In this document: positions 25,583 through 54,981 of the stretch, in pieces
How positions within the stretch are numbered: position 1 is the first letter of the stretch
Layout: each line of letters opens with the position of its first letter
Assembly (NCBI GenBank): GCA_964655175.1
Contig: CAZZLY010000001.1
Span: 95,049-159,048, forward strand
Source: an uncultured bacterium
GTDB taxonomy: Bacteria > Eisenbacteria > RBG-16-71-46
Reading direction: 5' to 3'
Length of the DNA stretch: 64,000 bases
Program-made: the position numbers and the translations under genes
The notes under the pieces: model-generated
Told to the model about the DNA's origin: nothing
Seen by the model: the letters and a program-made list of their open reading frames with translations, nothing else
Databases searched by the model: none

Positions 25583-25673
25583 GTCGGGGACAGCGGGAAC
25601 GACCGCCACCTCGACGGTGTAGACTGGTGGAGTCGCGAGGGTCGTGGTGGACCGGGAAGAAAGGACCTGCGGG

Positions 25674-28835: not shown

Positions 28836-28849
28836 GAGGTCGCGAGCGC

Positions 28850-30547
28850 ATGGACGCGTTCGATCACGCCTCGCGACTCGAGGCGCGCGAGGTTCCCGGC
28901 TTCGCCACGCCCGAATGGGCCAAGCACGCGGTCTGGTACCAGATCATGGTGGACCGATTCCGCCGCGGTGCCGGCGCTCCGCCGCGCGCACACGTGCGCG
29001 ACTGGCGTCAGGCGTGGGACGAGCCGAGCCCGTGGGAGGCCGCCGACCCGCGCGATCCGTATCGCGGCTGGATCTGGGAGCGGCAGTTGGGCGGCGACCT
29101 CGCGGGGTTGCGTGAGGCGTTCCCGTACCTGCGCGAGCTCGGGGTGAACGCGCTCTACCTGCTGCCCGTGTTCCAGGCCGAGAGCCCGCACAAATACAAC
29201 GCCACGAACTACCTGCACATCGACGAGCGCTATGGCACCGGCGCGCCCTATGCGGCGAACGAGGCGGTCGAGGACCTGCTCGATCCATCGACGTGGCGAT
29301 TCGATGCGAACGACCGGTTGTTCCTCGAGGTGCTGCGCGACGCCAAGCGCGCCGGCTTCCGCGTGATCCTCGACGGGGTGTTCAACCACGTCGGGACCGC
29401 GCACCCGGCGTTCCGGGACGTGCGCGAGAAGGGCCCCGCCAGCCGCTACGCGGATTGGTTCGAGATCGAGTCGTGGGAGCCGTTCCGCTATCGCGGCTGG
29501 TTCGGGCACGGCTCGCTGCCGCAGTTCGCCAAGGACGAGGAGCACGGCCTCGCCAGTGCGAGCCTGCGTCAGCACGTGTTCGACGTGACCCGGCGCTGGA
29601 TGGATCCCGACGGGGATGGCGATCCGTCGGATGGCATCGACGGGTGGCGTCTGGACGTGCCCAACGAGGTCCCGATCGCGTTCTGGCAGGAGTGGCGTCG
29701 ACTCGTGAAGTCCATCAATCCGGAGGCCTACATCACCGGCGAGATCTGGACCCCGGCGCAGCCGTGGCTGCAGGGCGACGCCTTCGACGCGGTCATGAAC
29801 TACGAGTTCGCCACGCCGGTCGTGGCGTGGGTGTTCGACCGTCGTCTGCGCATCCGGGCGCGCGAGTTCGACCGGCGACTGCACGAGGTGCGCGACCGGC
29901 ATCCGAGCGAGTCCACTTACGTGATGCAGAATCTGCTCGACAGTCATGACACCGATCGCGCGGTGAGCATGGCGCGCAATCCCGACCGCGTGTACAACAA
30001 GCTCAATCGCGTGCAGGACACGCCCGAATACGTCGGGGCCAAGCCCGGACCCGAGGAGTACCGACGGCTGCGGCTCGCGGCGCTCATCCAGATGACCTAC
30101 GTGGGTGCGCCCATGATCTGGTACGGCACCGAGGTCGGCATGTGGGGCGCCAACGATCCGCACAATCGCCGTCCCATGCTGTGGCCGGAACTCGAGCCCT
30201 ACGGCGACGCGCCGGACAACGCGATCATGCCCGACCTGCTCGCGTGGTACCGCCGCGTCATCGCCCTGCGCAACGCGCATCCCGCGCTGCGCATCGGCAG
30301 CTTCCGCACGGTGTTCGTGGACGACGTGCTGGACGTGTGGGCCTTCGTCCGCGAGTCGCAGGGCGAGGAACTCCTGGTCGTCACCAGCATGGCCGAGCGC
30401 GCGCAGCGCGTGCCGCTGCCCATCGAACTCGGGGGCGGGTGGACGCCGGTGTTCGGCGAGGAGCCCGCCGGCATGGTCGATCGCTTCCCCGACGTCGTCG
30501 TGGGACCGATCACCGGCCGCGTCTGGCATCGCGGCGGCGAGCGATGA
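28850..30547 (+). CDS. Cytoplasmic GH13 alpha-amylase family enzyme (neopullulanase/cyclomaltodextrinase-like)
   Basis: GH13 regions I-IV (…VILDGVFNHVGTAH…, …GWRLDVPNEV…, …ITGEIW…, …LLDSHDT…); no signal peptide; AGGAGG RBS at 28835-28840. Confidence 0.85.
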   Translation: MDAFDHASRLEAREVPGFATPEWAKHAVWYQIMVDRFRRGAGAPPRAHVRDWRQAWDEPSPWEAADPRDPYRGWIWERQLGGDLAGLREAFPYLRELGVNALYLLPVFQAESPHKYNATNYLHIDERYGTGAPYAANEAVEDLLDPSTWRFDANDRLFLEVLRDAKRAGFRVILDGVFNHVGTAHPAFRDVREKGPASRYADWFEIESWEPFRYRGWFGHGSLPQFAKDEEHGLASASLRQHVFDVTRRWMDPDGDGDPSDGIDGWRLDVPNEVPIAFWQEWRRLVKSINPEAYITGEIWTPAQPWLQGDAFDAVMNYEFATPVVAWVFDRRLRIRAREFDRRLHEVRDRHPSESTYVMQNLLDSHDTDRAVSMARNPDRVYNKLNRVQDTPEYVGAKPGPEEYRRLRLAALIQMTYVGAPMIWYGTEVGMWGANDPHNRRPMLWPELEPYGDAPDNAIMPDLLAWYRRVIALRNAHPALRIGSFRTVFVDDVLDVWAFVRESQGEELLVVTSMAERAQRVPLPIELGGGWTPVFGEEPAGMVDRFPDVVVGPITGRVWHRGGER

Positions 30548-32076: not shown

Positions 32077-34614
32077 TCAGAGGCGAACGAGCCGGGCGGT
32101 ACGCAGGCCCTCGGGGGTGCGCAGCTGCACGAAGTAAAGGCCCGGGGCGCTCGTGTGACCGCGGCCGTCGCGGCCGTCCCACGCCAGCAGGTGGTCGCCG
32201 CTCTCGTACACGCCGTCCGCGACCACCGCGACCTCACGGCCGGACACGTCGTGCACCGACAGGCGGACCGCCGCGCGGGTCGGGAGCGTGAACGACAGCG
32301 CCGAGGCGCGGTTCGTCGGGTTGGGCCACGGCGCGGCCAGCGCGAGCGTGGACGCCCGCGGGGCCGGGGGCGCGACACCGACGAACGAGTTCGGAGCGAG
32401 CACGATGAACGCCATCTTCGGCACCTTGAGCGTGATCGACTGATTGAAGCCGTCGTACGCACCGCCGTTGGCGAGCAGCGTGCCGGCGTTGGACGGACCC
32501 GAACCGCCGTAGCGCGTGTCCTGGCTGTTCACCAGTTCGGTCCACGTGCCGCCCTGCGGCATACCGATCTGGTAGATGGGGTAGTCGGTGTTCGACCAGT
32601 TGGCCAGGATCACGATCGGGTTGCCGCTCCCGTCCGTGCGGCGCCAGCCGATGACGTTGCCGGCCTCGTTGACGTGGAACACGTGCGTCGCACTGTTCGC
32701 GAACAGCGGCGCGAGCGACGTGCGCAGCGAGATGAGGCGGCTGAAGAACGCGTACACGCCCGCGCCCACGGTGCCCGTCTTCTTGGACCAGTCGAGACGG
32801 CCGGTGTTGTCGGGGGCGGGGTTGAACGGGTTGGACTCGAGCCATTCGTCGCCCTGCAGCATGGCCGGCACGCCCATCGAGGTGAGCGTGGTGCCGAGCG
32901 CCAGCAGCGTGCGGCCGCGCGCCCAGACGTCGTCGTGCGGTGCGGTCGAGTCGATGGTCTTGCACAGGCGCTGGCCACCGGTGGACGGCCACGCCTCGTC
33001 GTGCAACTGCACGTAGTGGTACGCGCGCTGCTGCTGCACGTAGTACCCGGCACCCAGGAGCGCGGTGCGGACGTCGTTCATGCTCGGATCGCCGAAGGCG
33101 GCCGCGAACACGGCGTTCCGGATGTTGTCGCGGAACTGCATGCTGTACTGGCTGTCGAAGCCGGCGCCGCCCAGGCTCGTGGGCGTCGAGACGGCGGCTT
33201 CGGTGGGCAGGTTCTCGGCGATCGTGACCTTGTCCACGAAGCGCTGGTTCTTCTCGTTGTTGAACCGCTGCATGATGGACCAGCCCGACGAGACGTTGGG
33301 GCCGACCTTCATGAACGCGGTGCCGTCCATGCGGAAGCCGTCGAGGTGGTACTCGTTCATCCAGACGTGCGCGCTGTGCGCGATCTGCTCGGCGACGGCG
33401 GGGCGGCTGAAGTTGGGCTGCGAACCCCAGGGCGTCGAGGCGTCCGGCGTGCAGAACCACGACTGCGTACCGTCGTAGTTCCACAGGTAGTTGTCGGTCG
33501 GCGAGTAGTGGTTCCAGACGAGGTCGAGCAGCACCGCGATGCCGTTGCGGTGGAGCGTGTTCACCATGGCCTTGAACTCGTCCGGCGTGCCGTAGCTGCC
33601 CTCGGGCGCGAAGAACGTCACCGGGTTGTAGCCGGCCGAGATGTTGGACGGGTACTCGGTGATCGGACACAGCTGCACCGCGTTCACGCCGAGCGCCTTG
33701 AGGTGCGCCACGCGCGCCGTCACGTCGGCGAAGCGCGACGGGTTGGGCGTCGTGCCCGCCGGGTCGTTGAGGCCGGCGAACGTGCCCACGTGCATCTGGT
33801 AGATGACCATGCGGTCGAGCGACGGCGTCGTCCAGCTCGTGTCGGTCCACGTGTAGCGGAACGGGTTCTCGACGATCGAGTTGTAGCCCGCCGGGGCGTT
33901 GAATGCGCGCGCGATCGGGTCCGGCGCGTAGCCGCCGTCGGCGGTGCGCGTCGGGAAGTAGAACTTGTACTCCGAGCGGTCGGTGACGTTGAGCCCGCGC
34001 GCGGTGAACCACTCGCCGGTCTTGGTCATGGCGAGCGTGTTCCAGTTGTTGAACGCGCCGCGCACGTAAGCCGTCGCGACGTCGGGCGCCCAGACCTTGA
34101 ACACGGCGGCGCCGCCGTTGACGAGGGTGGCACCCGGCGGCGCGTGCTCGAACGTCGTGAAGTTGATGCCGAAGCCTGCGGCATCGGCGGGCACGGTGGC
34201 GGTGATGCCGTTCGTGCTCAGGTAGGCGTTGTTGGCGCCGTCCGTGTACTGGATCCAGTACCGCTCGGTGGTGGAGGCCGTGGCCGGGATCTGCGCGGCC
34301 CACAGGTCGTAGGGCCCACGCGTGCCGATGCGCGAGGCCGCGATCGTGGAGGAGGTCGCGCCGACGATCAGGCGCACCGAGGCGGACGTGAGGTCGTTGC
34401 GATACGACTGGAAGCGCACCTGGAACGATTCGCCGTTCACAGGACACAGGGGCCGACGATCCTGCCAGGGGTAGTGCGAGAGGCCGTTCCACTCGACGTT
34501 CCCATCCGCGGACGCGGCGAACGACGAACCGACCGACAGGCACAGCAGGAGGCCCGTGAGGACCGAGGTCATTCTCTGGTGCAGGCGCATGCATCCTCCA
34601 TGGAGTGGCTTCAA
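32077..34614 (-). CDS. Secreted GH13 enzyme with CBM48 module (branching/debranching-enzyme-like, GlgB-type catalytic core) and C-terminal FlgD-Ig/T9SS-type sorting domain
   Basis: Signal peptide; CBM48 (…VFKVWAPDVATAYVRGAFNNWN…YKFYF); GH13 core (…MHVGTF…, …AVLLDLVWNHYS…, …YHLDGFRMDGTAFM…); C-terminal …VRLSVHDVSGREVAVV…LAWDGRDGRG…GLYFVQL… CTD. Confidence 0.8.
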   Translation of the reverse strand: MKPLHGGCMRLHQRMTSVLTGLLLCLSVGSSFAASADGNVEWNGLSHYPWQDRRPLCPVNGESFQVRFQSYRNDLTSASVRLIVGATSSTIAASRIGTRGPYDLWAAQIPATASTTERYWIQYTDGANNAYLSTNGITATVPADAAGFGINFTTFEHAPPGATLVNGGAAVFKVWAPDVATAYVRGAFNNWNTLAMTKTGEWFTARGLNVTDRSEYKFYFPTRTADGGYAPDPIARAFNAPAGYNSIVENPFRYTWTDTSWTTPSLDRMVIYQMHVGTFAGLNDPAGTTPNPSRFADVTARVAHLKALGVNAVQLCPITEYPSNISAGYNPVTFFAPEGSYGTPDEFKAMVNTLHRNGIAVLLDLVWNHYSPTDNYLWNYDGTQSWFCTPDASTPWGSQPNFSRPAVAEQIAHSAHVWMNEYHLDGFRMDGTAFMKVGPNVSSGWSIMQRFNNEKNQRFVDKVTIAENLPTEAAVSTPTSLGGAGFDSQYSMQFRDNIRNAVFAAAFGDPSMNDVRTALLGAGYYVQQQRAYHYVQLHDEAWPSTGGQRLCKTIDSTAPHDDVWARGRTLLALGTTLTSMGVPAMLQGDEWLESNPFNPAPDNTGRLDWSKKTGTVGAGVYAFFSRLISLRTSLAPLFANSATHVFHVNEAGNVIGWRRTDGSGNPIVILANWSNTDYPIYQIGMPQGGTWTELVNSQDTRYGGSGPSNAGTLLANGGAYDGFNQSITLKVPKMAFIVLAPNSFVGVAPPAPRASTLALAAPWPNPTNRASALSFTLPTRAAVRLSVHDVSGREVAVVADGVYESGDHLLAWDGRDGRGHTSAPGLYFVQLRTPEGLRTARLVRL

Positions 34615-34746
34615 GGATAGCGATGCGAACGGGTCCGCAGCAAGGGCCGACCGCGGTCGGGCACGGCCATAAGGGATGCGATAACCTATTCAGCGTCGGT
34701 AAGATACGGCAATCCGGCAAGTGCACCCGAACAGGAGGGCTCCGCC

Positions 34747-35937
34747 ATGCGCGCAAGGTACGGTTGGGCGATCGGTGCGGTGGTCTGCGGCGTCGTGGGC
34801 CTCTCGTCGGGCGCCGCCGCCGCGGTCCGGTTCGAGGTCCGCGTGCCGGCGAGCACGCCGCCCGACGCGGTGCTGCAGATCTGCGGGGACCGGACCGAGC
34901 TGGGGATGTGGAGCGGCCGCGGCGTGCGGCTGACGCGACTCGAGGACGGCCGGCACGTGGGCGAGGTCGAGCTGCCCGCGGGGACCCCGTTCCAGTTCAA
35001 GGTGACCCGGGGCGGCTGGGACACGGTCGAGAAATCGGCCACGGGCGAGGAGATCGCCAATCGTCAGGCCGTCGCCACCGGTGGGGCCGATACGATCGCG
35101 ATCGTGGTCGCCGGATGGCGCGACGGACTCGAGAAGCCGGTGGTGCGCCGCAGTACGATCACCGGGGACGTCCGCCGTCATGCCGCGTTCCCGTCCCGGT
35201 TCGTGTCCGCGCGCGACGTGCTCGTGTGGTTACCGCCGGGCTACGACGCCCAGCCGCGCCGCCGTTACCCCGTGGTGCTGTTCCACGACGGGCAGAACGT
35301 GTTCGACGGCGCGACGAGTTTCCTGCCGGGCTTGGAGTGGGGCGCCGACGAGACCGCCGACCATCTGATCCGCAGCGGTCGCATGGCCCCGTGCATCGTG
35401 GTGGCGGTCGCCAACTCGCCGCAGCGGCGCGACGACTACACGTTCGAGGTGGACGGCCGATACGGTGGCGGTCGGTCGGCCGAGTACGCGCGCTTCCTGA
35501 TCGAGGAACTGTTGCCGTTCCTGGATCGCACCTATCGCACGCGCACGCAGGCCGCCGATCGTACGGTGATCGGTTCGTCGCTCGGCGGGCTCGTCTCGCT
35601 CGACCTGGGATTGCAGCATCCCGAGGTGTTCGGCCGGGTGGGCGTGATCTCGCCGGCCGTGTGGTGGGCCGATCGCGCGATCGTCGCGCGCGTGACGGCC
35701 ACCGGGCATCGGCCGCTGCGCGTCTGGCTCGACGTCGGGACCGAGGAGAGCACGCCGACCGCCGATGGGCATCGCGAGTGGCTCGAGAGTGCGGAGGCGT
35801 TGCGGGCCGCGCTCGTGGGTGCGGGCTGGCGGGAGGGACGGGACCTGCATTACGAGGTCGTCGAGGGCGCCCGGCATCAGGAGCCCGCGTGGGCGGCACG
35901 GCTCGAGCGCGTCCTGGAGTGGCTGCAGGCTCGGTGA
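34747..35937 (+). CDS. CBM20-like starch-binding module fused to alpha/beta-hydrolase 'putative esterase' (PF00756-like) domain
   Basis: Signal peptide; N-terminal …VRFEVRVPA…LQICGDRTELGMWSGRGVRL…FQFKVTRGGWDTVEK…NRQ (CBM20 hallmarks LGxW, YKF-like, W-E…NR); esterase motifs …YPVVLFHDGQNVFD…, …GSSLGG…. Confidence 0.7.
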   Translation: MRARYGWAIGAVVCGVVGLSSGAAAAVRFEVRVPASTPPDAVLQICGDRTELGMWSGRGVRLTRLEDGRHVGEVELPAGTPFQFKVTRGGWDTVEKSATGEEIANRQAVATGGADTIAIVVAGWRDGLEKPVVRRSTITGDVRRHAAFPSRFVSARDVLVWLPPGYDAQPRRRYPVVLFHDGQNVFDGATSFLPGLEWGADETADHLIRSGRMAPCIVVAVANSPQRRDDYTFEVDGRYGGGRSAEYARFLIEELLPFLDRTYRTRTQAADRTVIGSSLGGLVSLDLGLQHPEVFGRVGVISPAVWWADRAIVARVTATGHRPLRVWLDVGTEESTPTADGHREWLESAEALRAALVGAGWREGRDLHYEVVEGARHQEPAWAARLERVLEWLQAR

Positions 35938-35963
35938 CCGGGGCCGGGGGGCGGACGCGACAA

Positions 35964-35992
35964 GGCCCCGCGGGTCGGTGACCCGCGGGGCC
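35964..35992. terminator. Bidirectional hairpin terminator between convergent genes
   Basis: GGCCCCGCGGGT-CGGTG-ACCCGCGGGGCC perfect 12-bp stem. Confidence 0.6.
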
Positions 35993-36011
35993 TCGCGTGT
36001 GTTCGAGCCGC

Positions 36012-38672
36012 TCAGCGCGTGATGCGGTAGATGCGTCCCGTGCTCGCCGGGAGGTCCAGCTTCACGGTGCCGCTCCACGACTGCGCCGCGCCACCCTCGA
36101 GGGCGTCCACCGCGCGGACCGTGCCGCCCAGCACGCTCGCGTCGAAGCTCACCTGCGCGGGACCGCGGCCGGCGTTGAGCACCACGACGAACTGCGACTG
36201 CGCGTCACGACGCAGGAACGCGAACGTCTGGCCCTGCGTGGCGAGGGTGCGGAACTCGCCCGTGCGCAGCGCCGCGTTCTGCAGGCGCAGGTTGGCGGCC
36301 TTCGTGTAGTAGGCGTGCACCGCCACGCGCTTGGGATCCTTCTCCCAGTCCCACGGGAACGGGCGCCGGCAGTCGGGGTCGCGCTGACCCTCGAGCGCGA
36401 CCTCATCGCCGTAGTAGATCGCCGGGGCGCCCACGTAGGTCATCTGGAACAGGGCCGCCAGCAGCAGGCGGCTCACGTCACCGTTCGCCTGCGTCAGGTA
36501 GCGCACCGTGTCGTGGCTGTCGATCAGGTTCATCTGCACCGCGACCGACTGGCGCGGGTACGTCAGACGGCCGGTGGCGAGCGCCGCATCGAACTCGGCC
36601 GCCGTGCCCTGGCCGTTGCACAGGAACTTGAGCACCGGGTCACGGAAGAAGGCGTAGTTCATGACCGCGTCGTACATGCCGGGCTTCACGTAGTCCGAGG
36701 CGTTGCCCCACAGCTCGCCCACGATGTAGGCGTCGGGCTTGACCTTCTTGACGCGCTTGTTGAACAGCTTCCAGAACCAGAAGGGCACCTCGTTCGGCAC
36801 GTCGAGGCGCACGCCGTCGGCGTCGGCCTCCTTGAGCCAGTACTCGGTGGCGTCGAGCAGGTAGTTGACCAGTGCGACGTTGGGCTGCGCGTCCTTCACG
36901 TCGCGGACCGGGATCTCGGCCTTGTCGTCGCGCGACAGGTCGAAGTTCAGGTCGGGCAGATCGCCGAAGCCCCACCAGCAGTTGTAGTAGTCGCCGGGCT
37001 TCCAGGCGTAGCCCACGTTGGGCCAGCCCTGCGGGAGCGGATACTGCTTGAAGGTGAACCAGCTGTAGTAGGGCGAGGCGGGCCCCTTCTCGACGGCGTC
37101 CTTGAACGCCCAGTGGGCGTTGCCGCTGTGGTTGAACACGATGTCGAGGATGATGCGGATGCCGCGCGCCTTGGCCTCCTTCGCGAACGTCTTGAACTCC
37201 TCGTTCGTGCCGAAGTGCGGGTCGATCTTGCGGTAATCCGCCGCGTCGTACTTGTGCGTCGACTTGGCCTCGAACAGCGGATTGAAATAGATGATGGTCA
37301 CGCCGAGCGACTGCAGGTAATCGAGCTTCTGGCGGACGCCCTCGAGGTCGCCACCGTAGAAGGCCATCCAGTCGCGGCGATCGTTCGTGTGCGGCGCCTG
37401 CGTGAGCGCGGCGACATCGTCCCACTTCACGAGGTGGTAGTACTCCTGGAAGTCGGTGTTGATGCGACCCGAGGCGGGCAGGGTGCGCTTGCCCTCGTAG
37501 TACCACTCCTTGAAGTCGGGGTCGTTCGCCGGGTTCCCGTTGCGGAACCGGTCGGGGAAGATCTGGTAGATGATGCCGTTCTTGACCCAGTCCGGCGTGA
37601 CGAACGCGGGGAAGCGGCTGCTGTCGTAGGTGAACGCCTCGCCCTTGGCGCGCGTCGTCGACAGACCCTTGGGGCCCAGCCACGGCCCCGGCGTGCCGTC
37701 CTGATACTGGAACACGTACTGCGCGCCCTCGGGCAGCTTCACCTCGGTGCGGAAGTAGTCGTACACGCGATCGCGCTCGACCGGCGTCATCGCCACGCGC
37801 GTCTCGGTGCCCCCCGGCGCCCACCAGATCAGGTCCACGCCGGTCACGTCGTCGAGGTGCGCGCGCGTGGTGAGCTCCACCAAGCCGCCGCCGAGCGCGT
37901 TGAGTTCCTGCGCGCCCTGCGTGTGCTCGACGCCGTCGGGGAAGACCTTGCCGTCGCCGCGCTTCACTTCGATCGCGGCGAAGCGCTCGTCCACGTTCTT
38001 GATCGAGTTCTTGCCGCCGAAGCCGTCCTCGGCCTCCGCGTCCTGCCCGGCGGTGTCCTGCGTCCAGCCGTTGGAGTTCACCACGAACTTGTACTGGTAC
38101 GACCCCGGCGCGAGCAGCAGGGTGGCCGTCCACACGCCGTCGCCATCGGCGTCGCTCATGGGCGTCTTGCCCACGGTCCAGTCGTTGAACGTGCCCGCGA
38201 CGCACAGCGCATCGGGCTTACCCGTGGGGCGGAACGAGAACGTCACGGTGCGCAGGCCCAGCTTGGGCGCATCGGCCTTCTTGAGCGTGGTGCCCTGGCC
38301 CAGCGTGACCGGCTGGTCCTTGAGCGTGGCGACGGCGTTCTGGCCGCCGAAGCCGTCGGACGAGGTCTCGACGGCGTTGTCATCGGTGAACCACTGATCG
38401 CCGTTGACGACGAACTTGTACTCGATGCGGCCGGCCGGCAACTCGAACGTGGCCGACCAGATGCCGTCCTTGTCGGCATCGGCGAGCGGGTTCGCGGTCG
38501 CGTTCCAGCCGTTGAAGCTACCGGCCACTGAAACGGCGTTCACGCCGCCGATGACGGGCTGATAGCGGAACGTGACCTTGGCCGCCGAAGCGAGGCCCGT
38601 CATGCACGCGAGCAGCACGGGCACGAGGGCGAGGGCGAGGCGCGCGAGGCGCTTGGGGGTGCTGGACCGCAT
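36012..38672 (-). CDS. Secreted multi-domain GH13 alpha-amylase/neopullulanase-like enzyme with several N-terminal glycogen-binding (CBM48/AMPK-GBD-like) modules
   Basis: Start ATG at 38672 (AGGAGA RBS) with signal peptide MRSSTPKRLARLALALVPVLLACMTGLASA; repeated …GSFNGWN…YKFVVNG…W..D..N…DGFGG.N modules; GH13 core …GGDLEGV…LDYLQSLGVTIIYFNPLFEA…, …RIILDIVFNHSG…, …GVRLDVPNEV…. Confidence 0.85.
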   Translation of the reverse strand: MRSSTPKRLARLALALVPVLLACMTGLASAAKVTFRYQPVIGGVNAVSVAGSFNGWNATANPLADADKDGIWSATFELPAGRIEYKFVVNGDQWFTDDNAVETSSDGFGGQNAVATLKDQPVTLGQGTTLKKADAPKLGLRTVTFSFRPTGKPDALCVAGTFNDWTVGKTPMSDADGDGVWTATLLLAPGSYQYKFVVNSNGWTQDTAGQDAEAEDGFGGKNSIKNVDERFAAIEVKRGDGKVFPDGVEHTQGAQELNALGGGLVELTTRAHLDDVTGVDLIWWAPGGTETRVAMTPVERDRVYDYFRTEVKLPEGAQYVFQYQDGTPGPWLGPKGLSTTRAKGEAFTYDSSRFPAFVTPDWVKNGIIYQIFPDRFRNGNPANDPDFKEWYYEGKRTLPASGRINTDFQEYYHLVKWDDVAALTQAPHTNDRRDWMAFYGGDLEGVRQKLDYLQSLGVTIIYFNPLFEAKSTHKYDAADYRKIDPHFGTNEEFKTFAKEAKARGIRIILDIVFNHSGNAHWAFKDAVEKGPASPYYSWFTFKQYPLPQGWPNVGYAWKPGDYYNCWWGFGDLPDLNFDLSRDDKAEIPVRDVKDAQPNVALVNYLLDATEYWLKEADADGVRLDVPNEVPFWFWKLFNKRVKKVKPDAYIVGELWGNASDYVKPGMYDAVMNYAFFRDPVLKFLCNGQGTAAEFDAALATGRLTYPRQSVAVQMNLIDSHDTVRYLTQANGDVSRLLLAALFQMTYVGAPAIYYGDEVALEGQRDPDCRRPFPWDWEKDPKRVAVHAYYTKAANLRLQNAALRTGEFRTLATQGQTFAFLRRDAQSQFVVVLNAGRGPAQVSFDASVLGGTVRAVDALEGGAAQSWSGTVKLDLPASTGRIYRITR

Positions 38673-38743
38673 GCTTCGTCTCCTGCTCGCAGGGGGGCGG
38701 CGAGTCTGGCTCGGGGAGGTCCCGGCGGGTGCCGGGGCCGGGT

Positions 38744-40132
38744 TCACTTCACGACGAGGACGGAGTTGAGACCGCCGAAGTCGTCCTCTTGAGTGGTCTT
38801 GTTCGCGACGTCCGTCTTCCAGGTCTTGCCGTCGATGAGGAACTTGTACGTGTGCGTGCCGGCGGGCAGCTTGCGGGTGACCGTCCAGGTGCCGTCGGAC
38901 TGCTGCGTCATGGGGTCGGTGTTGATCGCCCAGTCGTTGAACGAACCGCACAGGGCCACCGACGAGCCGGGACCGGCATACGTGAACGTCACACCCGCGG
39001 CGGCGATCTGCGGCGCGCGCGGGCTGCCCGTGACCTTGATCGCGCTCGCGACGGGCGCCGCACCGGCCCCTGCGGTACCCGCGACGACCATGATGGCGTT
39101 CTTGCCGCCGAAGCCGTCGTCCACGGTCTCCTTGGCGGTGGGGTCTTCCTTCCAGTTCGAGCCGTCCACCACGAACTTATAGGCGTAGCGGCCGGGCGCG
39201 AGCTTCTTGGTGATCGACCAGACACCGTCGGCGCCCTTGGTGAGCGCATCGGCGCTGGTGCTCCAGCTGTTGAACTCGCCGGCGAGGTTCACCGAGTTGG
39301 CGGCCCCCGCGTAGCGGAACGTCACGCCGTCGCCGGTGACGGTGGAGCCCGCCGACTTGGCGGCTGCGGGCGCGGCCGCGGCGGGAGCGGCGGTGCCGCC
39401 CACGACGACGATGGCGTTCTTGCCGCCGAAGCCGTCGTCCACGGTCTCCTTGGCGGCGGGGTCTTCCTTCCAGTTCGAGCCGTCCACGACGAACTTGTAG
39501 GCGTAGCGACCGGGCGACAGCTTCTTGGTGATCGACCACGTGCCATCGGCGCCCTTGGTGAGCGCATCGGCGCTGGTGCTCCAGCTGTTGAACTCGCCGG
39601 CGAGGTTCACCGAGTTGGCGGCCCCCGCGTAGCGGAACGTCACGCCGTCGCCGGTGACGGTGGAGCCCGCCGACTTGGCGGCTGCGGGCGCGGCCGCGGC
39701 GGGAGCGGCGGTGCCGCCCACGACGACGATGGCGTTCTTGCCGCCGAAGCCGTCGTCCACGGTCTCCTTGGCGGCGGGGTCTTCCTTCCAGTTCGAGCCG
39801 TCCACGACGAACTTGTAGGCGTAGCGACCGGGCGACAGCTTCTTGGTGATCGACCACGTGCCATCGGCGCCCTTGGTGAGCGCATCGGCACTGGTGCTCC
39901 AGCTGTTGAACTCGCCGGCCACGTTCACCGCGTTGCCCTCGCCCTTGTAGCGGAACGTCACGCCATCGGCGGACACCGCCGAGCCAGCGGCAGGGGCTGC
40001 CGCGGTCGCCGTCGGGGACGCGACGTCGTCACCGGCCCACTGCGGCGGGACACCGTTCCGCCAGCCACCGGCGCAACCCAGGGCGGGCAGGAGGAGGGCG
40101 ACGAGAGCGAGGGAGCGGAACGCGCGGGTCAT
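38744..40132 (-). CDS. Probable lipoprotein composed of four tandem glycogen/starch-binding (CBM48/AMPK-GBD-like) domains
   Basis: Signal/lipobox-like MTRAFRSLALVALLLPALGC; four repeats of …GVTFRY.G…V.LAGEFNSWS…YAYKFVVDGSNWKEDP…DDGFGGKNA…, three of them nearly identical. Confidence 0.8.
   Translation of the reverse strand: MTRAFRSLALVALLLPALGCAGGWRNGVPPQWAGDDVASPTATAAAPAAGSAVSADGVTFRYKGEGNAVNVAGEFNSWSTSADALTKGADGTWSITKKLSPGRYAYKFVVDGSNWKEDPAAKETVDDGFGGKNAIVVVGGTAAPAAAAPAAAKSAGSTVTGDGVTFRYAGAANSVNLAGEFNSWSTSADALTKGADGTWSITKKLSPGRYAYKFVVDGSNWKEDPAAKETVDDGFGGKNAIVVVGGTAAPAAAAPAAAKSAGSTVTGDGVTFRYAGAANSVNLAGEFNSWSTSADALTKGADGVWSITKKLAPGRYAYKFVVDGSNWKEDPTAKETVDDGFGGKNAIMVVAGTAGAGAAPVASAIKVTGSPRAPQIAAAGVTFTYAGPGSSVALCGSFNDWAINTDPMTQQSDGTWTVTRKLPAGTHTYKFLIDGKTWKTDVANKTTQEDDFGGLNSVLVVK
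39092..40069. repeat. Tandem direct repeat, period 318 bp (106 codons), three near-identical copies plus a diverged fourth copy (38747-39091), all in-frame within the 4xGBD lipoprotein gene
   Basis: Nucleotides 39322-39567 are identical to 39640-39885 (overlapping antisense-frame ORFs give identical peptides); protein repeats identical over ~100 aa. Confidence 0.8.
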
Positions 40133-40989
40133 GGCAGTCTCCTGGTCGGGATCGACCGAGCCGGTGCGGCGGCACGCAGGGCCGCGACGCCGGGGGCGTG
40201 GTACTCGGTGATGCTGATGCTGAGGCGGCGCTCGTCGAAGACGAACGCGAACGTGTCGGTCGTGGCGAAGTGCACCACGAGGTCGGTGGCGGGCGTGGTG
40301 CCGAAGCGGGCCGGTGCGTCGGTGAACGGCGCGGACAGCGTCTGCGAACCGTCACCGCCCCAGCCGATCAGGTTCCCGATCGTCGAGGAGGCGTCGGTCA
40401 CGAACTTGAGGCGATAGGTGCCCGCGGCGATCGTCGGCATGGGGGAGGCGTACAGGTTGTAGTCGTTGTCGAGCCGCCACAGGCCCGCCGACGTGCCGAT
40501 GCACAGCGTCGTGAACGTGAGGAGCTCGTCGGGCGAGTAGCCCGGCATGGTGCCGATGACGAACACGTTCGAGGCGAGCGAGTCGGCCGTGTTGGCGATG
40601 AGCTTGAGGTCGCCGGCGTCCCGCGTGCGATCCACGACGCGGAACGGCCCGTACGCGCGCGGCGAGAACGCGTGCGAGCGCGCCACCAGCCCGTAGTCGC
40701 CGGGCTTGAGGCGGGCGAACGTGAACGCGGGCGAACCGGGCGTCGTGAGGGTCTCGGCCACCACGAGGCCCCCCTGCGTCATCTGGACGCGCACGGGCGG
40801 GAACGGGGCGCGGTCGAGCCCGGGGTAGGCCGTCGTGTCGAACACCACGACCCCGGTGAGTCCCCCGGTCGGCACCGCGGGCGCGGGGCGGATCCCGGTG
40901 GGCACGAGCACCTGACCCTTCTCGTTGCGACCGCAGCCGACGAGAGCGACGAGCAGGGGGAGCGTGAGCCACAGCGAACGTGCACGCAT
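40129..40989 (-). CDS. Lipoprotein of unknown function (candidate surface glucan-binding protein); true start at ATG 40989
   Basis: MRARSLWLTLPLLVALVGC lipobox; co-directional and overlapping (ATGA-type) with neighbouring glucan-binding genes; no recognisable catalytic motifs. Confidence 0.6.
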   Translation of the reverse strand: MRARSLWLTLPLLVALVGCGRNEKGQVLVPTGIRPAPAVPTGGLTGVVVFDTTAYPGLDRAPFPPVRVQMTQGGLVVAETLTTPGSPAFTFARLKPGDYGLVARSHAFSPRAYGPFRVVDRTRDAGDLKLIANTADSLASNVFVIGTMPGYSPDELLTFTTLCIGTSAGLWRLDNDYNLYASPMPTIAAGTYRLKFVTDASSTIGNLIGWGGDGSQTLSAPFTDAPARFGTTPATDLVVHFATTDTFAFVFDERRLSISITEYHAPGVAALRAAAPARSIPTRRLP

Positions 40990-41003
40990 GGTCGGACTCG
41001 ACC

Positions 41004-41408
41004 TCACCGGACGTCCAGCAGCGAGTTGAAGCCGCCGAAGCCGTCGTTGGTGCGGTTGGGGTTGTTCGGGTCTTCCTTCCAGTTCACGCGATCGATGACG
41101 AACTTGTACTGGTAACGCCCCGCCGGGAGCCGCTCGGTGCGCGTCCAGATGCCGTCGCCATCCTCGTCCTTCATCTCGCCGACGAGGAACGACCCCGTCT
41201 GGGCCTGGCCCGCGAGCCACTTGTTCTCCGGCCAGTCGCCCGCCACCTGCACGACCTTGGCGCTCGGGGCCTCGAAGCGGAACGTCACGCCCTCGGGACC
41301 GGCGGTCGGCGGCGGGAGGCGGCGCTTGATGAAGTTGAGCGTGCTGCAGCCCGCGACCAGCGCCAGCAGCGCGAGCGCGGTGAGGATCGGACCGAGGGGA
41401 CGACGCAT
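41004..41408 (-). CDS. Small lipoprotein with single glycogen-binding (CBM48/AMPK-GBD-like) domain
   Basis: MRRPLGPILTALALLALVAGC lipobox; …GVTFRFEAPSAKVVQVAGDWPENKW…YQYKFVIDRVNWKEDPNN…DGFGGFNS…. Confidence 0.7.
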   Translation of the reverse strand: MRRPLGPILTALALLALVAGCSTLNFIKRRLPPPTAGPEGVTFRFEAPSAKVVQVAGDWPENKWLAGQAQTGSFLVGEMKDEDGDGIWTRTERLPAGRYQYKFVIDRVNWKEDPNNPNRTNDGFGGFNSLLDVR

Positions 41409-41439
41409 GTCGGGACTCCTTGGCGGCGGTGCGTGAGAA

Positions 41440-43749
41440 CTAGAAGTGGACGATCGCCTGGATCTGGATGCGCTTCTCGTTCATGAGTGCGCGCTCGGCG
41501 GCGGCGATCTGCGGGGCGAGGGACAGGTAGTCGGTCTCGGCGACGAAGCCGTTGGCGTTGCGCGCCTCGAGGTAACGCTCGCGTCCGAGCGGCGCGTACT
41601 CGTTGGTGATCGGGTCGAGCACGTTCGGGTCCACGCCGAAGCCCAGCGACAGTTCGATGCCGGGCGCCCAGCGATAGGTCGCGTCGGTGAAGAAGTCCAG
41701 ATAACCGCGTCCCAGCCCCAGCTCGGGCGTGTCGTACTTGACCCAACGCAGGTCGTGCTCGATGCGGATGGGGCGATTGAGGTCCCAGCCCAGCGTGAAC
41801 ACGGACTCGGCGTAACGGGGCTGCGTGCCCAGATGCACGCCGGTGAAGTTGCCCTTCCAGGCGAACGAGCCCTTGCGACGGGGCGCGAACGGGATCTCGA
41901 GCGAGGGGCGCACGCGCACCACGTCGGACTGTCCGAGCACGGTGAGGCGATCGGGGCCGACCAGCGAGCGCCCGCTCTCGAGCCAGAAGTTCCCGGTCGG
42001 GAACCACATCTGATACTCCCACGCGGTGCGCGGGTCGTACTCGAAGTGCGTCACCTCGAGGTCGAGCGTGGTCTTGACCTCACGGTCGAGGTAATACCGC
42101 CAGTTGCGATCCCAGCCCAGCGTGAACGTCGTGCGGGCGTTGTCGAGCTGCAGGAACGGGTCGTCCACCTGCGCGCGCTGGAACTCGACGTTGAGCACGC
42201 GCGGATGGTCGTCGGGCGGCAGGCCCGCCGGGATGATCGGCGACTGCGCCCACGCGGGATAGCGGTGCGTCTCGCGCTCGATCGTCGCACGCAGGCCGAT
42301 GTCGCCCTGCGCCAGCGTCCACGCGGCACCCAGATGCAGCTTGTCGCTCGCATCGGTGGTGAAGTGCTGCCCGTCGGCGAGCGTCGAGCCGAGACTCGAG
42401 AAGCCCGTCGCCCCGGTGGCGGCGATCGCGGACGCCTTCCAGCGCTCCTCGGTCGCGCCGTTCACCAGGTTCAGGCGACGCGCGCCGAACAGCGCTTCGG
42501 CGTCCAGACGCAGCGTGCTCGACGGCTGCCAGCGGAGCGTGCCGCCGAGGCCGTACCACTGCTGCGTCGTCTGGCCGCTGCGCACGCGGACGACGCTGTC
42601 CGAGACAGGCTCGGCGAGGACGAGCCGACCCAGCTGGAAGCCTCGATCGGTGCGCCCCAGCACGCTCGCGCGCAGGCCGCGACCGAGGTCGCGCGCCACG
42701 CGCAGGGCGAACGTGTTCTCGTTGCCGTCGCCGTACCCGAACGCCTTACCGTTGTCGCCGAAGTCGGTCGCCGACACCTTGGCGAGCTGCTGCGTGCCGA
42801 GCCGGAACCCGGTCGTGCCGCGCTCGGCGGCGAGCAGGGCGAGCGCCTTGGCGGTCGCATCCCCCTCGAACACGAAGTCGGGCAGGGGCTGGCGCGTCAC
42901 GGTGAAGCCGGGGAACGTCGTACCGCCGGCCTCGAAGTTGTCCGTGTAGAGCAGTTCCGTCTCGAAGCCCGCCTGCGGCGTGCGGAACTGGAACCCCTGG
43001 CGCTGGTAGCCGAACGGCCGCGCGTACGGTCCGATGGCGCCGACCAGATGGAACGGGTCGTCCCAGTCCGCGATCGTCTCGCTGTCGAACGCGTACAGGG
43101 ACATGCCCGGCGTGGTCATGGTCAGGCTCCCGCGCTTGAAGTTGAGGCGGCTGCGGAAGTCCTGCCCCGTCTCGTTGCGCGGATTCAGATTGGTGAGCAT
43201 GTGACCCGTGAGTGCATCCGAGAACCGCACGCCGAAGCCCAGGTCCACGTCCATCTCGGGACGACGCAGTTCGTAGCGCGAGTAGGCGGGCGTGTAGAAG
43301 CTCTGGTACAGGCCGATGATGCGCCCGTCGATGAGCACCTTGGGGCTGTAGGGGGTGTTCGAGGTGGCCTTCTGCGTGACGAGTTCGCCCTTGGCGTCCA
43401 CCGTCACCACGCTGTTGCCGAACTCGCCCTTGGTGGCGCCGTTCTCGGGATCGGCGAACCACTGGCCGTCGACGACGAACTTGTAGGTGTGCTCACCCGC
43501 CGGAAGCGCGAGCGTCACGCTCCACAGGTCCCCCGTCTTCTTCATGGGGTTCGCGCTCGAGTTCCAACCGTTGAACTCGCCGGCCCACGCCACACTGCCG
43601 GCGTTGGCGTCGCGATAGGTGAAGCGGATGCCGCCCGCGGCCTTCTCGGGGGCCGCGTGCGCAGGGGAGGCGAGGGCGAGCGCCACGAGGGCGGCCGAGA
43701 GCGTCGCCGCGAGACGACGGAGCGGACGGACGAGGACGTGGGCGCGCAT
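41440..43749 (-). CDS. Outer-membrane beta-barrel protein with N-terminal glycogen-binding (CBM48-like) domain
   Basis: Signal peptide MRAHVLVRPLRRLAATLSAALVALALASPAHA; …GIRFTYRDANAGSVAWAGEFNGWNS…HTYKFVVDGQWFADP… GBD; >650 aa of alternating beta-strand-like sequence rich in G/Y/F/W/N, C-terminal …QIQAIVHF (terminal aromatic). Listed 1293-aa ORF 41440..45321 is two genes; ATG 43747-43749 shares its A with the upstream gene's TGA stop. Confidence 0.7.
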   Translation of the reverse strand: MRAHVLVRPLRRLAATLSAALVALALASPAHAAPEKAAGGIRFTYRDANAGSVAWAGEFNGWNSSANPMKKTGDLWSVTLALPAGEHTYKFVVDGQWFADPENGATKGEFGNSVVTVDAKGELVTQKATSNTPYSPKVLIDGRIIGLYQSFYTPAYSRYELRRPEMDVDLGFGVRFSDALTGHMLTNLNPRNETGQDFRSRLNFKRGSLTMTTPGMSLYAFDSETIADWDDPFHLVGAIGPYARPFGYQRQGFQFRTPQAGFETELLYTDNFEAGGTTFPGFTVTRQPLPDFVFEGDATAKALALLAAERGTTGFRLGTQQLAKVSATDFGDNGKAFGYGDGNENTFALRVARDLGRGLRASVLGRTDRGFQLGRLVLAEPVSDSVVRVRSGQTTQQWYGLGGTLRWQPSSTLRLDAEALFGARRLNLVNGATEERWKASAIAATGATGFSSLGSTLADGQHFTTDASDKLHLGAAWTLAQGDIGLRATIERETHRYPAWAQSPIIPAGLPPDDHPRVLNVEFQRAQVDDPFLQLDNARTTFTLGWDRNWRYYLDREVKTTLDLEVTHFEYDPRTAWEYQMWFPTGNFWLESGRSLVGPDRLTVLGQSDVVRVRPSLEIPFAPRRKGSFAWKGNFTGVHLGTQPRYAESVFTLGWDLNRPIRIEHDLRWVKYDTPELGLGRGYLDFFTDATYRWAPGIELSLGFGVDPNVLDPITNEYAPLGRERYLEARNANGFVAETDYLSLAPQIAAAERALMNEKRIQIQAIVHF

Positions 43750-54721: not shown

Positions 54722-54981
54722 GACGACGCGCGCCCATGCAAGCGGAAGAGGGGGGCCGGATTCCGGCGATGGACCCGGTCGCGGAAGGGGCCCGGCAGGA
54801 GGGCGGGCGGTGCCGGGGGCCGCAACGGGCTCAAGCGGCGCCGTGACCCCGGCCGATGCTTCCGTTACACTGTCCCGGTGGTGGTCGTGCGTGGGTCATT
54901 CCGACTCGCGACGGCCGCGTCCCGAGTCCCGATCCCGAGGGGTGGTTCCCACTCGTCGTGGTCAGAACCCAAGGAGTTCCC

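What the first reader, a model, noticed from the sequence alone, without database searches (positions are those of the whole stretch)
34747..35937. CBM20-like starch-binding module fused to a putative esterase inside the glucan locus
An N-terminal domain with CBM20 hallmarks (LGxW, FQFKV, W-E…NR) precedes an alpha/beta-hydrolase of the 'putative esterase' type (…VVLFHDGQNVFD…GSSLGG…). Esterases targeted to starch are uncommon. Candidate roles are removal of acyl/phosphate-ester modifications on alpha-glucans, or a CBM48-esterase of the Fes/IroE architecture co-opted for glucan binding.
Basis: partly seen in the sequence, partly recalled or inferred. Interest (0 to 1): 0.55.

Follow-up and report, generated by a model that had tools for sequence, protein, structure and literature searches.

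The report
Secreted CBM20-esterase in an alpha-glucan locus
The gene really does encode a secreted esterase carrying a starch-binding-type (CBM20) module and sits among starch-degrading genes, but it belongs to a very large uncharacterised family found in many phyla, and whether it acts on starch at all is unproven.

Summary
Observation confirmed. Window 34747-35937 (+) is a real 396-aa gene: AGGAGG 8 nt upstream, GC3 0.89, Sec-type signal peptide. Residues ~26-126 are a genuine CBM20 by Pfam, PDB profile search and fold. Residues ~141-396 are a PF00756 alpha/beta-hydrolase. Its Ser278-Glu334-His377 triad aligns residue-for-residue with Ser542/Glu606/His638 of the CBM48-CE1 esterase DmCE1B.

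The gene lies in an alpha-glucan locus: three GH13, GH77, CBM48-repeat proteins and an ABC sugar importer. This placement recurs in about 11 of 14 informative Candidatus Eisenbacteria loci. It is absent in other phyla, where no neighbour family recurs.

The family is large: more than 4,478 close hits and 1,092 50%-identity clusters at E<=1e-30. I found no characterised member. CBM20 is the only recurrent partner of this catalytic clade.

Canonical starch-binding residues are only partly kept. W55, K85 and N105 are present, but the second site-1 Trp aligns to Lys96.

By fold, the catalytic domain is equally close to CE1 feruloyl/acetyl esterases and to siderophore esterases.

Best reading: an accessory secreted carboxyl-esterase of alpha-glucan utilisation, substrate unknown. 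It is a new variant of the CBM-plus-CE1-like esterase theme. Interest is moderate.

The parts
34733..34738 (+). Shine-Dalgarno-like AGGAGG, 8 nt upstream of the ATG
   Evidence: Read directly from the sequence.
34747..35937 (+). Coding sequence of the CBM20-esterase (396 aa plus stop)
   Evidence: ORF list; GC3 0.89; Pfam CBM_20 + Esterase; more than 4,478 homologues, most of the best 120 with the same architecture.
34747..34824 (+). Predicted Sec (SPI-type) signal peptide, aa 1-26 (MRAR / hydrophobic core / SSGAAAA|V)
   Evidence: Inferred from the sequence. Homologues have equivalent hydrophobic N-termini ending in small residues. pLDDT is about 50 over aa 1-20 in the model. No signal-peptide predictor was available.
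34822..35124 (+). CBM20-fold module, aa ~26-126. Invariant W55, K85, T87, G89, W91, V94, E95, N105, W124.
   Evidence: Pfam PF00686 30.7 bits. Profile versus PDB hits only CBM20. AF2 domain model pLDDT 92; Foldseek top hit STBD1 CBM20 8x8k, TM 0.71, rmsd 2.7 A. Conservation.
35125..35166 (+). Interdomain linker, aa ~127-140, with lower model confidence but conserved R134/T137/T139/G140
   Evidence: pLDDT 74-75 for aa 121-140; conservation.
35167..35934 (+). Alpha/beta-hydrolase esterase domain (PF00756, CE1-like), aa ~141-396
35578..35580 (+). Codon of Ser278, the nucleophile in G-S-S-L-G-G
   Evidence: Invariant. Aligns with Ser542 of DmCE1B (chain residue 272 of 7b5v).
35746..35748 (+). Codon of Glu334, the catalytic acid in G-T-x-E after strand beta7
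   Evidence: Invariant across phyla, whereas D329 is not. Aligns with Glu606 of DmCE1B.
35875..35877 (+). Codon of His377, the catalytic base in H-x-E-x-x-W
   Evidence: Invariant among close homologues and nearly invariant across phyla. Aligns with His638 of DmCE1B.
35964..35992 (.). Perfect 13-bp GC-rich stem with a 3-nt loop between the convergent esterase and GH13 genes; probable bidirectional terminator
   Evidence: RNA fold -44.5 kcal/mol, z = -5.9, 0 of 200 shuffles as stable. No T-run, so the consensus terminator scan missed it.
34615..34746 (.). 132-bp intergenic region shared with the divergently transcribed GH13/CBM48/T9SS gene
   Evidence: ORF coordinates. No sigma-70 consensus found. 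Candidate shared motif not conserved.
32077..34614 (-). Neighbour: GH13 enzyme (GlgB/TreZ-like) with a weak sub-threshold CBM48 match and a T9SS-type C-terminal sorting domain
   Evidence: Pfam and NCBIfam.
36012..38951 (-). Neighbour: GH13 neopullulanase/cyclomaltodextrinase-like enzyme with two CBM48. The ORF is shown as listed; the true start is probably internal, near 38.67 kb, at a lipoprotein-like signal.
   Evidence: Pfam and NCBIfam. An orthologue sits next to the esterase in 10 Eisenbacteria loci.
38744..40132 (-). Neighbour: non-catalytic protein made of four CBM48/AMPK1_CBM repeats
   Evidence: Pfam; syntenic in Eisenbacteria loci.

Best explanation
The gene encodes a Sec-exported, two-domain serine carboxyl-esterase. 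An N-terminal CBM20-fold module (aa ~26-126) is joined by a short conserved linker to a PF00756/CE1-like alpha/beta-hydrolase. The hydrolase uses Ser278 as nucleophile, His377 as base and Glu334 as acid.

It belongs to a large, uncharacterised, multi-phylum family in which this catalytic clade is recurrently paired with CBM20. In Candidatus Eisenbacteria, the lineage of this window, the gene is a conserved component of an alpha-glucan utilisation locus.

I therefore infer that it is an accessory enzyme of alpha-glucan use. It would work in the periplasm or outside the cell, removing O-acyl (carboxylic ester) groups, or ester-linked non-sugar material, from starch-, glycogen- or maltodextrin-type substrates. 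This would let the neighbouring GH13/GH77 enzymes and the ABC importer process them.

Shown: the gene, its architecture, its fold, the triad, the family's size and spread, and synteny within Eisenbacteria. Inferred: export, esterase activity, any binding of alpha-glucan by the CBM20, and the substrate.
For: - Gene and architecture.
- CBM20 identity of the N-domain: Pfam above threshold; the profile hits only CBM20 chains in the PDB, best E 1.4e-6; the AF2 domain model (pLDDT 92) has its 46 best Foldseek hits all CBM20.
- Site-1 equivalents W55, K85 and N105 are invariant across phyla.
- Esterase: 124 bits to PF00756. The triad aligns with the annotated Ser542/Glu606/His638 of DmCE1B_ct (PMC8040265). 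Triad motifs are retained in 128-141 of 150 cluster representatives.
- Locus: GH13 x3, GH77, CBM48 proteins, ABC permease and SBP.
- Synteny: GH13c, CBM48-repeat and other locus orthologues lie within 10 kb of the esterase in L002/L008, L003, L004, L006, L010, L011, L012, L014, L015, L016 and L032. Esterase identities are 47-66%, with most loci at 53-66%.
- In one Eisenbacteria clade the esterase is directly followed on the same strand by a MalK-type ATPase (ABC_tran + OB_MalK + TOBE_2).
- CBM20 is the only recurrent appended module in the catalytic clade: 53 of 93 representatives of 330 aa or more.
Against: - Outside Eisenbacteria (Myxococcota, Planctomycetota, Fervidobacterium, Cloacimonadota, Acidobacteriota, Hymenobacter and others) the neighbours show no recurrent family. 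The maximum was 3 of 127 neighbour proteins, and GH57 appeared in 2.
- In the window the gene is on the opposite strand to both flanking GH13 genes, so it is not in their operons.
- The canonical second site-1 tryptophan (W590 of A. niger glucoamylase) aligns to Lys96, and the site-2 tyrosines are absent.
- 47 of 150 representatives of the catalytic clade have no N-domain.
- No fusion of this catalytic domain to a glycoside hydrolase was found among the 10 longest proteins tested.
- In the closest solved two-domain relatives (CBM48-CE1) the starch-type module does not bind starch (PMC8040265).
- I know of no natural acylated alpha-glucan substrate common in soils or sediments.
Confidence: 0.4

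Rival explanations
1. It is a generic CE1-type polysaccharide esterase (acetyl or feruloyl esterase acting on hemicellulose or another acylated glycan). The CBM20-fold module would be a structural or proximity element, as the CBM48 is in CBM48-CE1 enzymes. Its position in the Eisenbacteria glucan locus would be inherited gene order without a direct role in alpha-glucan breakdown.
For: - The best sequence-profile matches of the catalytic domain are CBM48-CE1 feruloyl/acetyl-xylan esterases: 7b5v 105 bits, 6mot/6mou 96, 6rzo 88, 8bbp 87.
- The best Foldseek hits of the whole model are the same two-domain enzymes.
- Those CBM48 modules lack starch binding (PMC8040265).
- Canonical CBM20 binding sites are only partly kept.
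- There is no glucan context outside Eisenbacteria.
- The gene is on the opposite strand to its GH13 neighbours.
Against: - There are no xylanase or other hemicellulase genes in the window or in related loci.
- The N-domain is CBM20, not the CE1-type CBM48 subfamily.
- Synteny with GH13, and in one clade with malK, persists at 53-66% identity in most loci.
- The oxyanion-region motif HDGQN differs from the QHGGG aligned to it in 7b5v.
Confidence: 0.3
2. It is an esterase that trims O-acyl groups from the organism's own or a neighbour's extracellular or capsular polysaccharide. This would resemble KpACE of Klebsiella (signal peptide + CBM48 + esterase), with the CBM binding that polymer.
For: - KpACE has the same overall layout and its closest structural homologue is DmCE1B_ct (PMC11556721).
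- The family occurs in many phyla in unrelated contexts, sometimes next to glycosyltransferases: GT9 in 3 of 127 neighbours.
Against: - There is no EPS or capsule gene cluster around the gene in the window. The GT genes at 16.9-18 kb are about 17 kb away.
- The Eisenbacteria synteny is with catabolic GH13 genes.
Confidence: 0.1
3. It is a lipid-ester hydrolase (for example a lysophospholipase or short/medium-chain carboxylesterase) tethered to starch granules. It would strip granule-bound lipids or amylose-lipid complexes so that amylases can act.
For: - The CBM20 together with the glucan locus would deliver the enzyme to granules.
- That cereal starch carries internal lipids is general knowledge.
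Against: - No lid-like insertion is evident.
- The idea is purely inferential.
Confidence: 0.1
4. It is a siderophore (catecholate trilactone) esterase of the Fes/IroE/BesA type.
For: - The triad uses Glu.
- As I recall it, the DGQN motif resembles the LDGN/LDGE motif of siderophore esterases (from memory, not tested).
- One Eisenbacteria locus (L001) has ExbB/ExbD genes nearby.
Against: - NCBIfam enterochelin esterase scores 48 bits against a cut-off of 222, and only over aa 244-392.
- The N-domain is CBM20, with no Fes N-domain match.
- No TonB-dependent receptor, iron-ABC or NRPS genes recur among 127 neighbours or occur in the window.
Confidence: 0.05

Closest known systems
CBM48-CE1 two-domain esterases of Bacteroidota xylan PULs: DmCE1B_ct (PDB 7B5V/7B6B), Bacint_01033/01039 (6MOT/6MOU/6NE9), wtsFae1A/B (6RZO/6RZN/8BBP)
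   Same: - Signal peptide, then an N-terminal starch-binding-type beta-sandwich, a short linker and a PF00756 alpha/beta-hydrolase, about 350-400 aa in all.
- A Ser-His-Glu triad that aligns residue-for-residue.
- Best sequence-profile and Foldseek matches.
   Different: - The module here is CBM20, not CBM48. PMC8040265 notes that PULDB lists CE1 fused to CBM48 but to no other CBM family.
- Identity is only about 18-22%.
- The global superposition is poor (TM about 0.45-0.5, rmsd about 11 A), so the domain arrangement may differ.
- The genomic context is alpha-glucan genes, not xylan genes.
- The oxyanion-region motif is HDGQN here, where 7b5v has QHGGG at the aligned position.
Canonical CBM20 starch-binding domains: A. 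niger glucoamylase SBD 1AC0, CGTase domain E, B. cereus beta-amylase 1CQY, human STBD1 8X8K, GDE5 2Z0B
   Same: - Same fold (TM about 0.7, rmsd 2.7-3 A) and detectable sequence homology.
- Equivalents of W543, K578, N595 and R596 are kept (W55, K85, N105, R106).
   Different: - W590 aligns to Lys96. There is a 4-residue insertion before N105.
- The site-2 tyrosines Y527 and Y556 align to P39 and T64.
- There is a family-specific invariant motif K-x-T-R-G-x-W-x-T-V-E (W91).
- The module is attached to an esterase rather than an amylolytic or glycogen-related protein.
KpACE, acetylated-capsule esterase of Klebsiella pneumoniae (PMC11556721)
   Same: Signal peptide + starch-type CBM + PF00756-type esterase, about 390 aa. 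It is a secreted deacetylase of a polysaccharide.
   Different: It has CBM48, not CBM20, and a Ser-His-Asp triad. It acts on the producer's own capsule. It was not compared with the query by sequence here.
Siderophore esterases Fes (3MGA, 2B20, 3C87), BES (2QM0), IroE (2GZS), PfeE (6GI0), EstB (6GUN)
   Same: - Fes also has an N-terminal beta-sandwich domain.
   Different: - There is no sequence match to the Fes N-domain.
- NCBIfam enterochelin esterase scores far below its cut-off.
- There is no iron-uptake gene context.
Soil-metagenome esterase 8Z91 and the GTNG_0744 family esterase (NCBIfam NF058612)
   Same: Best single-sequence matches of the catalytic N-terminal half: 49 bits to 8Z91 and 64 bits to NF058612.
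   Different: Both score far below the equivalog cut-off (64 versus 450 bits). The matches cover the catalytic domain only, and no CBM20 is reported for them in these outputs.

Membership tests
CBM20 (Pfam PF00686) | Sequence match to the family model above the curated threshold | tested here: met
   30.7 bits against a cut-off of 23.3, E 2.9e-7, aa 26-109. Most of the best 120 homologues carry precomputed PF00686.
CBM20 (Pfam PF00686) | CBM20-type beta-sandwich fold | tested here: met
   AF2 domain model pLDDT 92. The 46 best Foldseek PDB hits are all CBM20 (STBD1, glucoamylases, CGTases, beta-amylase, GDE5), TM about 0.7. The profile hits only CBM20 chains.
CBM20 (Pfam PF00686) | Starch-binding site 1: two stacking Trp plus Lys/Glu/Asn (W543, K578, W590, E591, N595 in A. 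niger glucoamylase) | tested here: inconclusive
   W55, K85 and N105 align and are invariant. W590 aligns to K96 in the glucoamylase alignment. In the beta-amylase alignment the family-specific W91 aligns to W495.
CBM20 (Pfam PF00686) | Starch-binding site 2 aromatics (Y527, Y556, W563) | tested here: not met
   Y527 aligns to P39, Y556 to T64 and W563 to H71. The H71 position is aromatic in many homologues.
CBM20 (Pfam PF00686) | Measured binding of starch, maltooligosaccharides or cyclodextrin | not testable with these tools
   This needs pull-down, ITC or affinity electrophoresis.
PF00756 'Putative esterase' / CE1-like alpha/beta-hydrolases | Sequence match above the curated threshold, and an alpha/beta-hydrolase fold | tested here: met
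   [not shown]
PF00756 'Putative esterase' / CE1-like alpha/beta-hydrolases | G-x-S-x-G nucleophile elbow and a complete Ser-His-acid triad at canonical positions | tested here: met
   S278, E334 and H377 align with Ser542, Glu606 and His638 of DmCE1B_ct. All three are conserved.
PF00756 'Putative esterase' / CE1-like alpha/beta-hydrolases | Formal CAZy CE1 assignment, and acetyl or feruloyl esterase activity | not testable with these tools
   No CAZy/dbCAN models were available, and activity needs an assay.
CBM48-CE1 esterase subfamily | N-terminal module of the CE1-type CBM48 subfamily | tested here: not met
   There is no PF02922 hit at E<=0.1. The N-domain profile finds no CBM48-CE1 chain at E<=10. 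No CBM48 chain is among the 50 listed Foldseek hits of the domain model.
CBM48-CE1 esterase subfamily | Conserved relative placement of the two domains, with the active site in the interdomain groove | tested here: inconclusive
   Whole-model Foldseek alignments span both domains but with TM 0.45-0.5 and rmsd about 11 A. pTM is 0.72 and linker pLDDT about 75.
Fes/IroE-type siderophore esterases | Match to enterochelin-esterase models and the Fes N-terminal domain | tested here: not met
   NF007758 scores 48 bits against a cut-off of 222, C-terminal part only. No PF11806 hit.
Fes/IroE-type siderophore esterases | Association with iron/siderophore uptake genes | tested here: not met
   None occur in the window. 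None recur among 127 neighbour proteins of 34 loci.

The most novel reading that the evidence does not exclude
This family would be the first carbohydrate esterase dedicated to alpha-glucans. The secreted enzyme's CBM20 would dock it on starch, glycogen or maltodextrin, and it would remove natural O-acyl substituents that otherwise block GH13 enzymes. That would make it effectively a new CE activity, and possibly a new CE family, and would reveal an unrecognised layer of alpha-glucan modification in soils and sediments.
Probability: 0.2. Interest if true: 0.65.

Novelty: new variant of a known kind. Interest (0 to 1): 0.4.

Why it matters
All characterised esterases that carry a starch-type module have CBM48 and act on xylan or capsule. 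No esterase is known as a component of starch or glycogen utilisation.

Here a CBM20-bearing esterase family with thousands of members, and no characterised member in the literature I could search, is a conserved part of the alpha-glucan locus of an uncultured phylum.

If the enzyme acts on alpha-glucans, it would point to natural ester modifications of these polymers and add a missing accessory activity. If it does not, it shows again that starch-type CBMs next to esterases are poor predictors of substrate. Either way the family is a cheap and well-defined target for biochemical characterisation.

Tried and rejected
1. Shared regulatory motif. GATGCGA-containing words occur twice in the 132-bp region upstream of the esterase and again upstream of 48086. 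The 7-mer is common in the window and absent from the equivalent regions of L003 and L004, so I dropped it.

2. Consensus promoter and terminator scan of 34400-36300: nothing found. The hairpin at 35964-35992 was found by eye and by folding.

3. MalK in the window: tblastn with the L002 MalK found none. The esterase-malK pairing therefore belongs to another Eisenbacteria clade.

4. 'Rosetta-stone' fusions. The 10 longest proteins carrying this catalytic domain have extra esterase, beta-lactamase-fold, TPR, CBM20 or AMPK1_CBM parts, but no glycoside hydrolase.

5. Neighbour-family enrichment outside Eisenbacteria: nothing recurrent. The Fervidobacterium and Cloacimonadota neighbours are unrelated or unknown.

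6. Literature. I found no paper describing a CBM20-esterase in the searchable library, and nothing useful on Eisenbacteria starch use.

7. AFDB Foldseek library was unavailable.

8. Model coordinates are not exposed. I could not measure whether W55, W91, K85 and N105 face the active site.
Full report
**1. The observation**

ORF 34747-35937 (+) encodes 396 aa. Several features mark it as a real gene:
- Codon-position GC is 0.74/0.54/0.89.
- An AGGAGG box lies 8 nt upstream of the ATG.
- There are more than 4,478 homologues, the nearest at 95% identity.

Pfam scores both domains above their curated thresholds: CBM_20 at 30.7 bits (cut-off 23.3, aa 26-109) and Esterase PF00756 at 124 bits (aa 155-390). 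No CBM48 hit appears even at E<=0.1.

The N-terminus (MRAR, a hydrophobic core, then SSGAAAA|V) looks like a Sec signal peptide. Homologues have equivalent N-termini. This is read from the sequence; no predictor was available.

**2. The N-terminal domain is a genuine CBM20**

A profile built from 26 N-domains spanning several phyla (A3) matches only CBM20 domains in the PDB. These include beta-amylase 1CQY (E 1.4e-6), glucoamylase 1AC0 (4.4e-6), CGTases, STBD1 and GDE5. No CBM48 chain and no Fes N-domain appears, even at E<=10.

An AF2 model of the domain alone has pLDDT 92.

The ligand sites are less clear. In the alignment to A. niger glucoamylase:
- W55, K85, N105 and R106 correspond to W543, K578, N595 and R596.
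- W590, the second stacking tryptophan of site 1, aligns to Lys96.
- A four-residue insertion precedes N105.
- The site-2 tyrosines Y527 and Y556 align to P39 and T64.

The family has its own invariant motif, K-x-T-R-G-x-W-x-T-V-E (W91). It is conserved from Eisenbacteria to Fervidobacterium and Hymenobacter. In the beta-amylase alignment W91 pairs with W495, so the correspondence is ambiguous. It cannot be settled without coordinates.

From memory, a W590K substitution weakens the glucoamylase starch-binding domain. If Lys96 is the true equivalent, canonical site 1 is degraded.

**3. The catalytic domain**

The full-length AF2 model has pLDDT 89.4 and pTM 0.72, with a less confident linker over aa 121-140.

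A profile of the catalytic domain (A4) matches CBM48-CE1 esterases best:
- 7B5V, 105 bits over the whole domain
- 6MOT/6MOU, 96 bits
- 8Z91, 90 bits
- 6RZO, 88 bits
- 8BBP, 87 bits
- the IroE-like protein 3GFF, 80 bits
- BES, 68 bits
- Fes, about 34 bits

In the 7B5V alignment, Ser278, Glu334 and His377 fall exactly on chain residues 272, 336 and 368. These are Ser542, Glu606 and His638, the triad annotated for DmCE1B_ct (PMC8040265). Glu334 is conserved across phyla whereas Asp329 is not.

NCBIfam equivalogs all score far below their cut-offs: GTNG_0744 esterase 64 of 450, xylanase/feruloyl esterase 51 of 1200, enterochelin esterase 48 of 222. The protein is not a member of any named equivalog.

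**4. Surroundings in the window**

The gene sits in an alpha-glucan locus:
- GH13 at 28733-30547
- GH77 ending at 31965
- GH13 (GlgB/TreZ-like, weak sub-threshold CBM48 match, T9SS-type tail) at 32077-34614 (-)
- the esterase itself (+)
- GH13 (neopullulanase-like, two CBM48) at 36012-38951 (-)
- a 4xCBM48 protein at 38744-40132 (-)
- several genes without family hits, one carrying a CBM48 and one weakly PorV-like
- an ABC permease and sugar-binding protein at 51647-54596 (-)

The esterase is transcribed divergently from the upstream GH13, with a 132-bp spacer. It converges on the downstream GH13. A perfect 13-bp GC hairpin lies between those two genes (-44.5 kcal/mol, z -5.9). The esterase is therefore its own transcription unit.

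**5. Related loci**

A scan of one genome per species returned 80 loci. The nearest are Candidatus Eisenbacteria at 52-66% identity.

Orthologues of the window's GH13c, CBM48-repeat and unknown genes lie within 10 kb of the esterase in L002/L008, L003, L004, L006, L010, L011, L012, L014, L015, L016 and L032. They do not in L001/L005, L033 and L038. Four further loci have too little flanking sequence to judge.

In one clade the esterase is immediately followed, on the same strand, by a MalK-type ATPase. The window itself has no MalK.

Outside Eisenbacteria the family occurs in Myxococcota, Planctomycetota, Krumholzibacteriia, Elusimicrobiota, Fervidobacterium, Cloacimonadota, Gemmatimonadota, Acidobacteriota and Hymenobacter. 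Among 127 proteins flanking 34 such genes, no Pfam family occurs more than three times, and GH57 occurs twice. Gene calls in these loci are my own heuristic, so the counts are approximate.

The link to alpha-glucan genes is therefore real but lineage-restricted.

**6. Family size and modularity**

The catalytic domain alone finds 16,852 50%-identity clusters at E<=1e-3 and 1,092 at E<=1e-30.

Among the best 150 representatives:
- 47 are catalytic-domain-only (under 330 aa).
- 54 carry the N-domain motif.

Of the 93 representatives of 330 aa or more that were scanned, 53 have CBM_20 and no other CBM family recurs.

Longer proteins add second esterase domains, a beta-lactamase-fold domain, TPR repeats, CBM20 or AMPK1_CBM, but no glycoside hydrolase. 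A Phycisphaerae locus carries a tandem paralogue with CBM20 (60 bits) + Esterase + Dockerin.

CBM20 is thus the preferred but dispensable partner of this esterase clade.

**7. Interpretation**

Established:
- The product is an exported two-domain protein.
- It has a true CBM20 fold.
- It has an intact Ser-His-Glu esterase domain of the PF00756/CE1-like type.
- The family is abundant, and I found no characterised member.
- Placement in an alpha-glucan locus is conserved within Eisenbacteria.

Inferred: it serves alpha-glucan utilisation as an accessory carboxyl-esterase (confidence about 0.4).

The main rival (about 0.3) is a generic polysaccharide esterase whose starch-type module is structural or a proximity device, as in CBM48-CE1 enzymes. 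Their CBM48 does not bind starch. Lesser rivals are a KpACE-like exopolysaccharide deacetylase, a starch-lipid esterase and a siderophore esterase.

**8. Comparison with known systems and novelty**

It works like, and is distantly related to, the CBM48-CE1 esterases. It fails their membership test on the defining module, because it carries CBM20 rather than CBM48. It also fails on context, being in an alpha-glucan locus rather than a xylan PUL.

PMC8040265 states that PULDB lists CE1 domains fused to CBM48 but to no other CBM family. I found no paper on a CBM20-esterase in the searchable library. This is weak negative evidence, because much of the literature is not covered.

I rate it a new variant of a known kind, with moderate interest (0.4). 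The most novel reading not excluded is a dedicated alpha-glucan O-acyl esterase family (probability about 0.2, interest about 0.65 if true).

Noticed in passing
window 35964-35992: A perfect 13-bp GC stem with a 3-nt loop lies between the convergent esterase and GH13 genes (-44.5 kcal/mol, z -5.9). It is a probable bidirectional terminator without a T-tract, and the consensus scan missed it.
   Followed up: partly
window 38744-40132 (-): A 462-aa protein consists of four CBM48/AMPK1_CBM repeats and has no catalytic domain. It could be a SusE/F-like starch-binding protein of a non-Bacteroidota lineage. It is syntenic across Eisenbacteria loci.
   Followed up: partly
window 40129-47625 (-): This is a run of genes with no or almost no family hits: 40129-41220, about 41440-43698 with an N-terminal CBM48, 43749-45314, 45311-46243 (weakly PorV/PorQ-like, 43 bits) and 46240-47625. 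Orthologues of four of them (40129-41220, the ~41440-43698 CBM48 protein, 45311-46243 and 46240-47625) stay next to the GH13 gene in many Eisenbacteria loci. They may be an uncharacterised outer-membrane alpha-glucan capture or uptake apparatus. The listed ORF 41440-45321 is really two genes in different frames.
   Followed up: partly
window 25644-28835 (+): A 1063-aa protein combines Peptidase_MA_2, a PD40/DPPIV-type beta-propeller and a C-terminal Omp85 barrel. It lies just downstream of BamA-like and TamB-like genes. This is an unusual fusion.
   Followed up: no
window 32077-34614 (-) and 48086-50551 (+): Both proteins end in FlgD_ig/Por_Secre_tail (T9SS type A sorting) domains. The second also has 'choice-of-anchor X' repeats. 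This suggests T9SS-like export of the extracellular GH13 in this non-Bacteroidota organism.
   Followed up: no
L035 8145-9935 (Phycisphaerae MAG): A tandem paralogue sits directly upstream of the family member. It has CBM20 (60 bits, a much stronger match) + Esterase + Dockerin_1, 597 aa.
   Followed up: no
L002 11332-12426 and equivalents in L006, L007, L010, L011, L013, L014: In one Eisenbacteria clade a MalK-type ABC ATPase (OB_MalK, TOBE_2) directly follows the esterase on the same strand. The two are likely co-transcribed. The window has no MalK.
   Followed up: partly
window 51647-54596 (-): An ABC sugar permease and a solute-binding protein (SBP_bac_1/8) close the glucan locus. A type III glutamine synthetase follows at 54856-57198.
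   Followed up: no
L040 11121-12137 and L045 11109-12104 (Fervidobacterium): In two Fervidobacterium genomes a ~335-aa ORF with no Pfam hit lies directly downstream of the esterase on the same strand. Whether the two ORFs are homologous was not tested.
   Followed up: no
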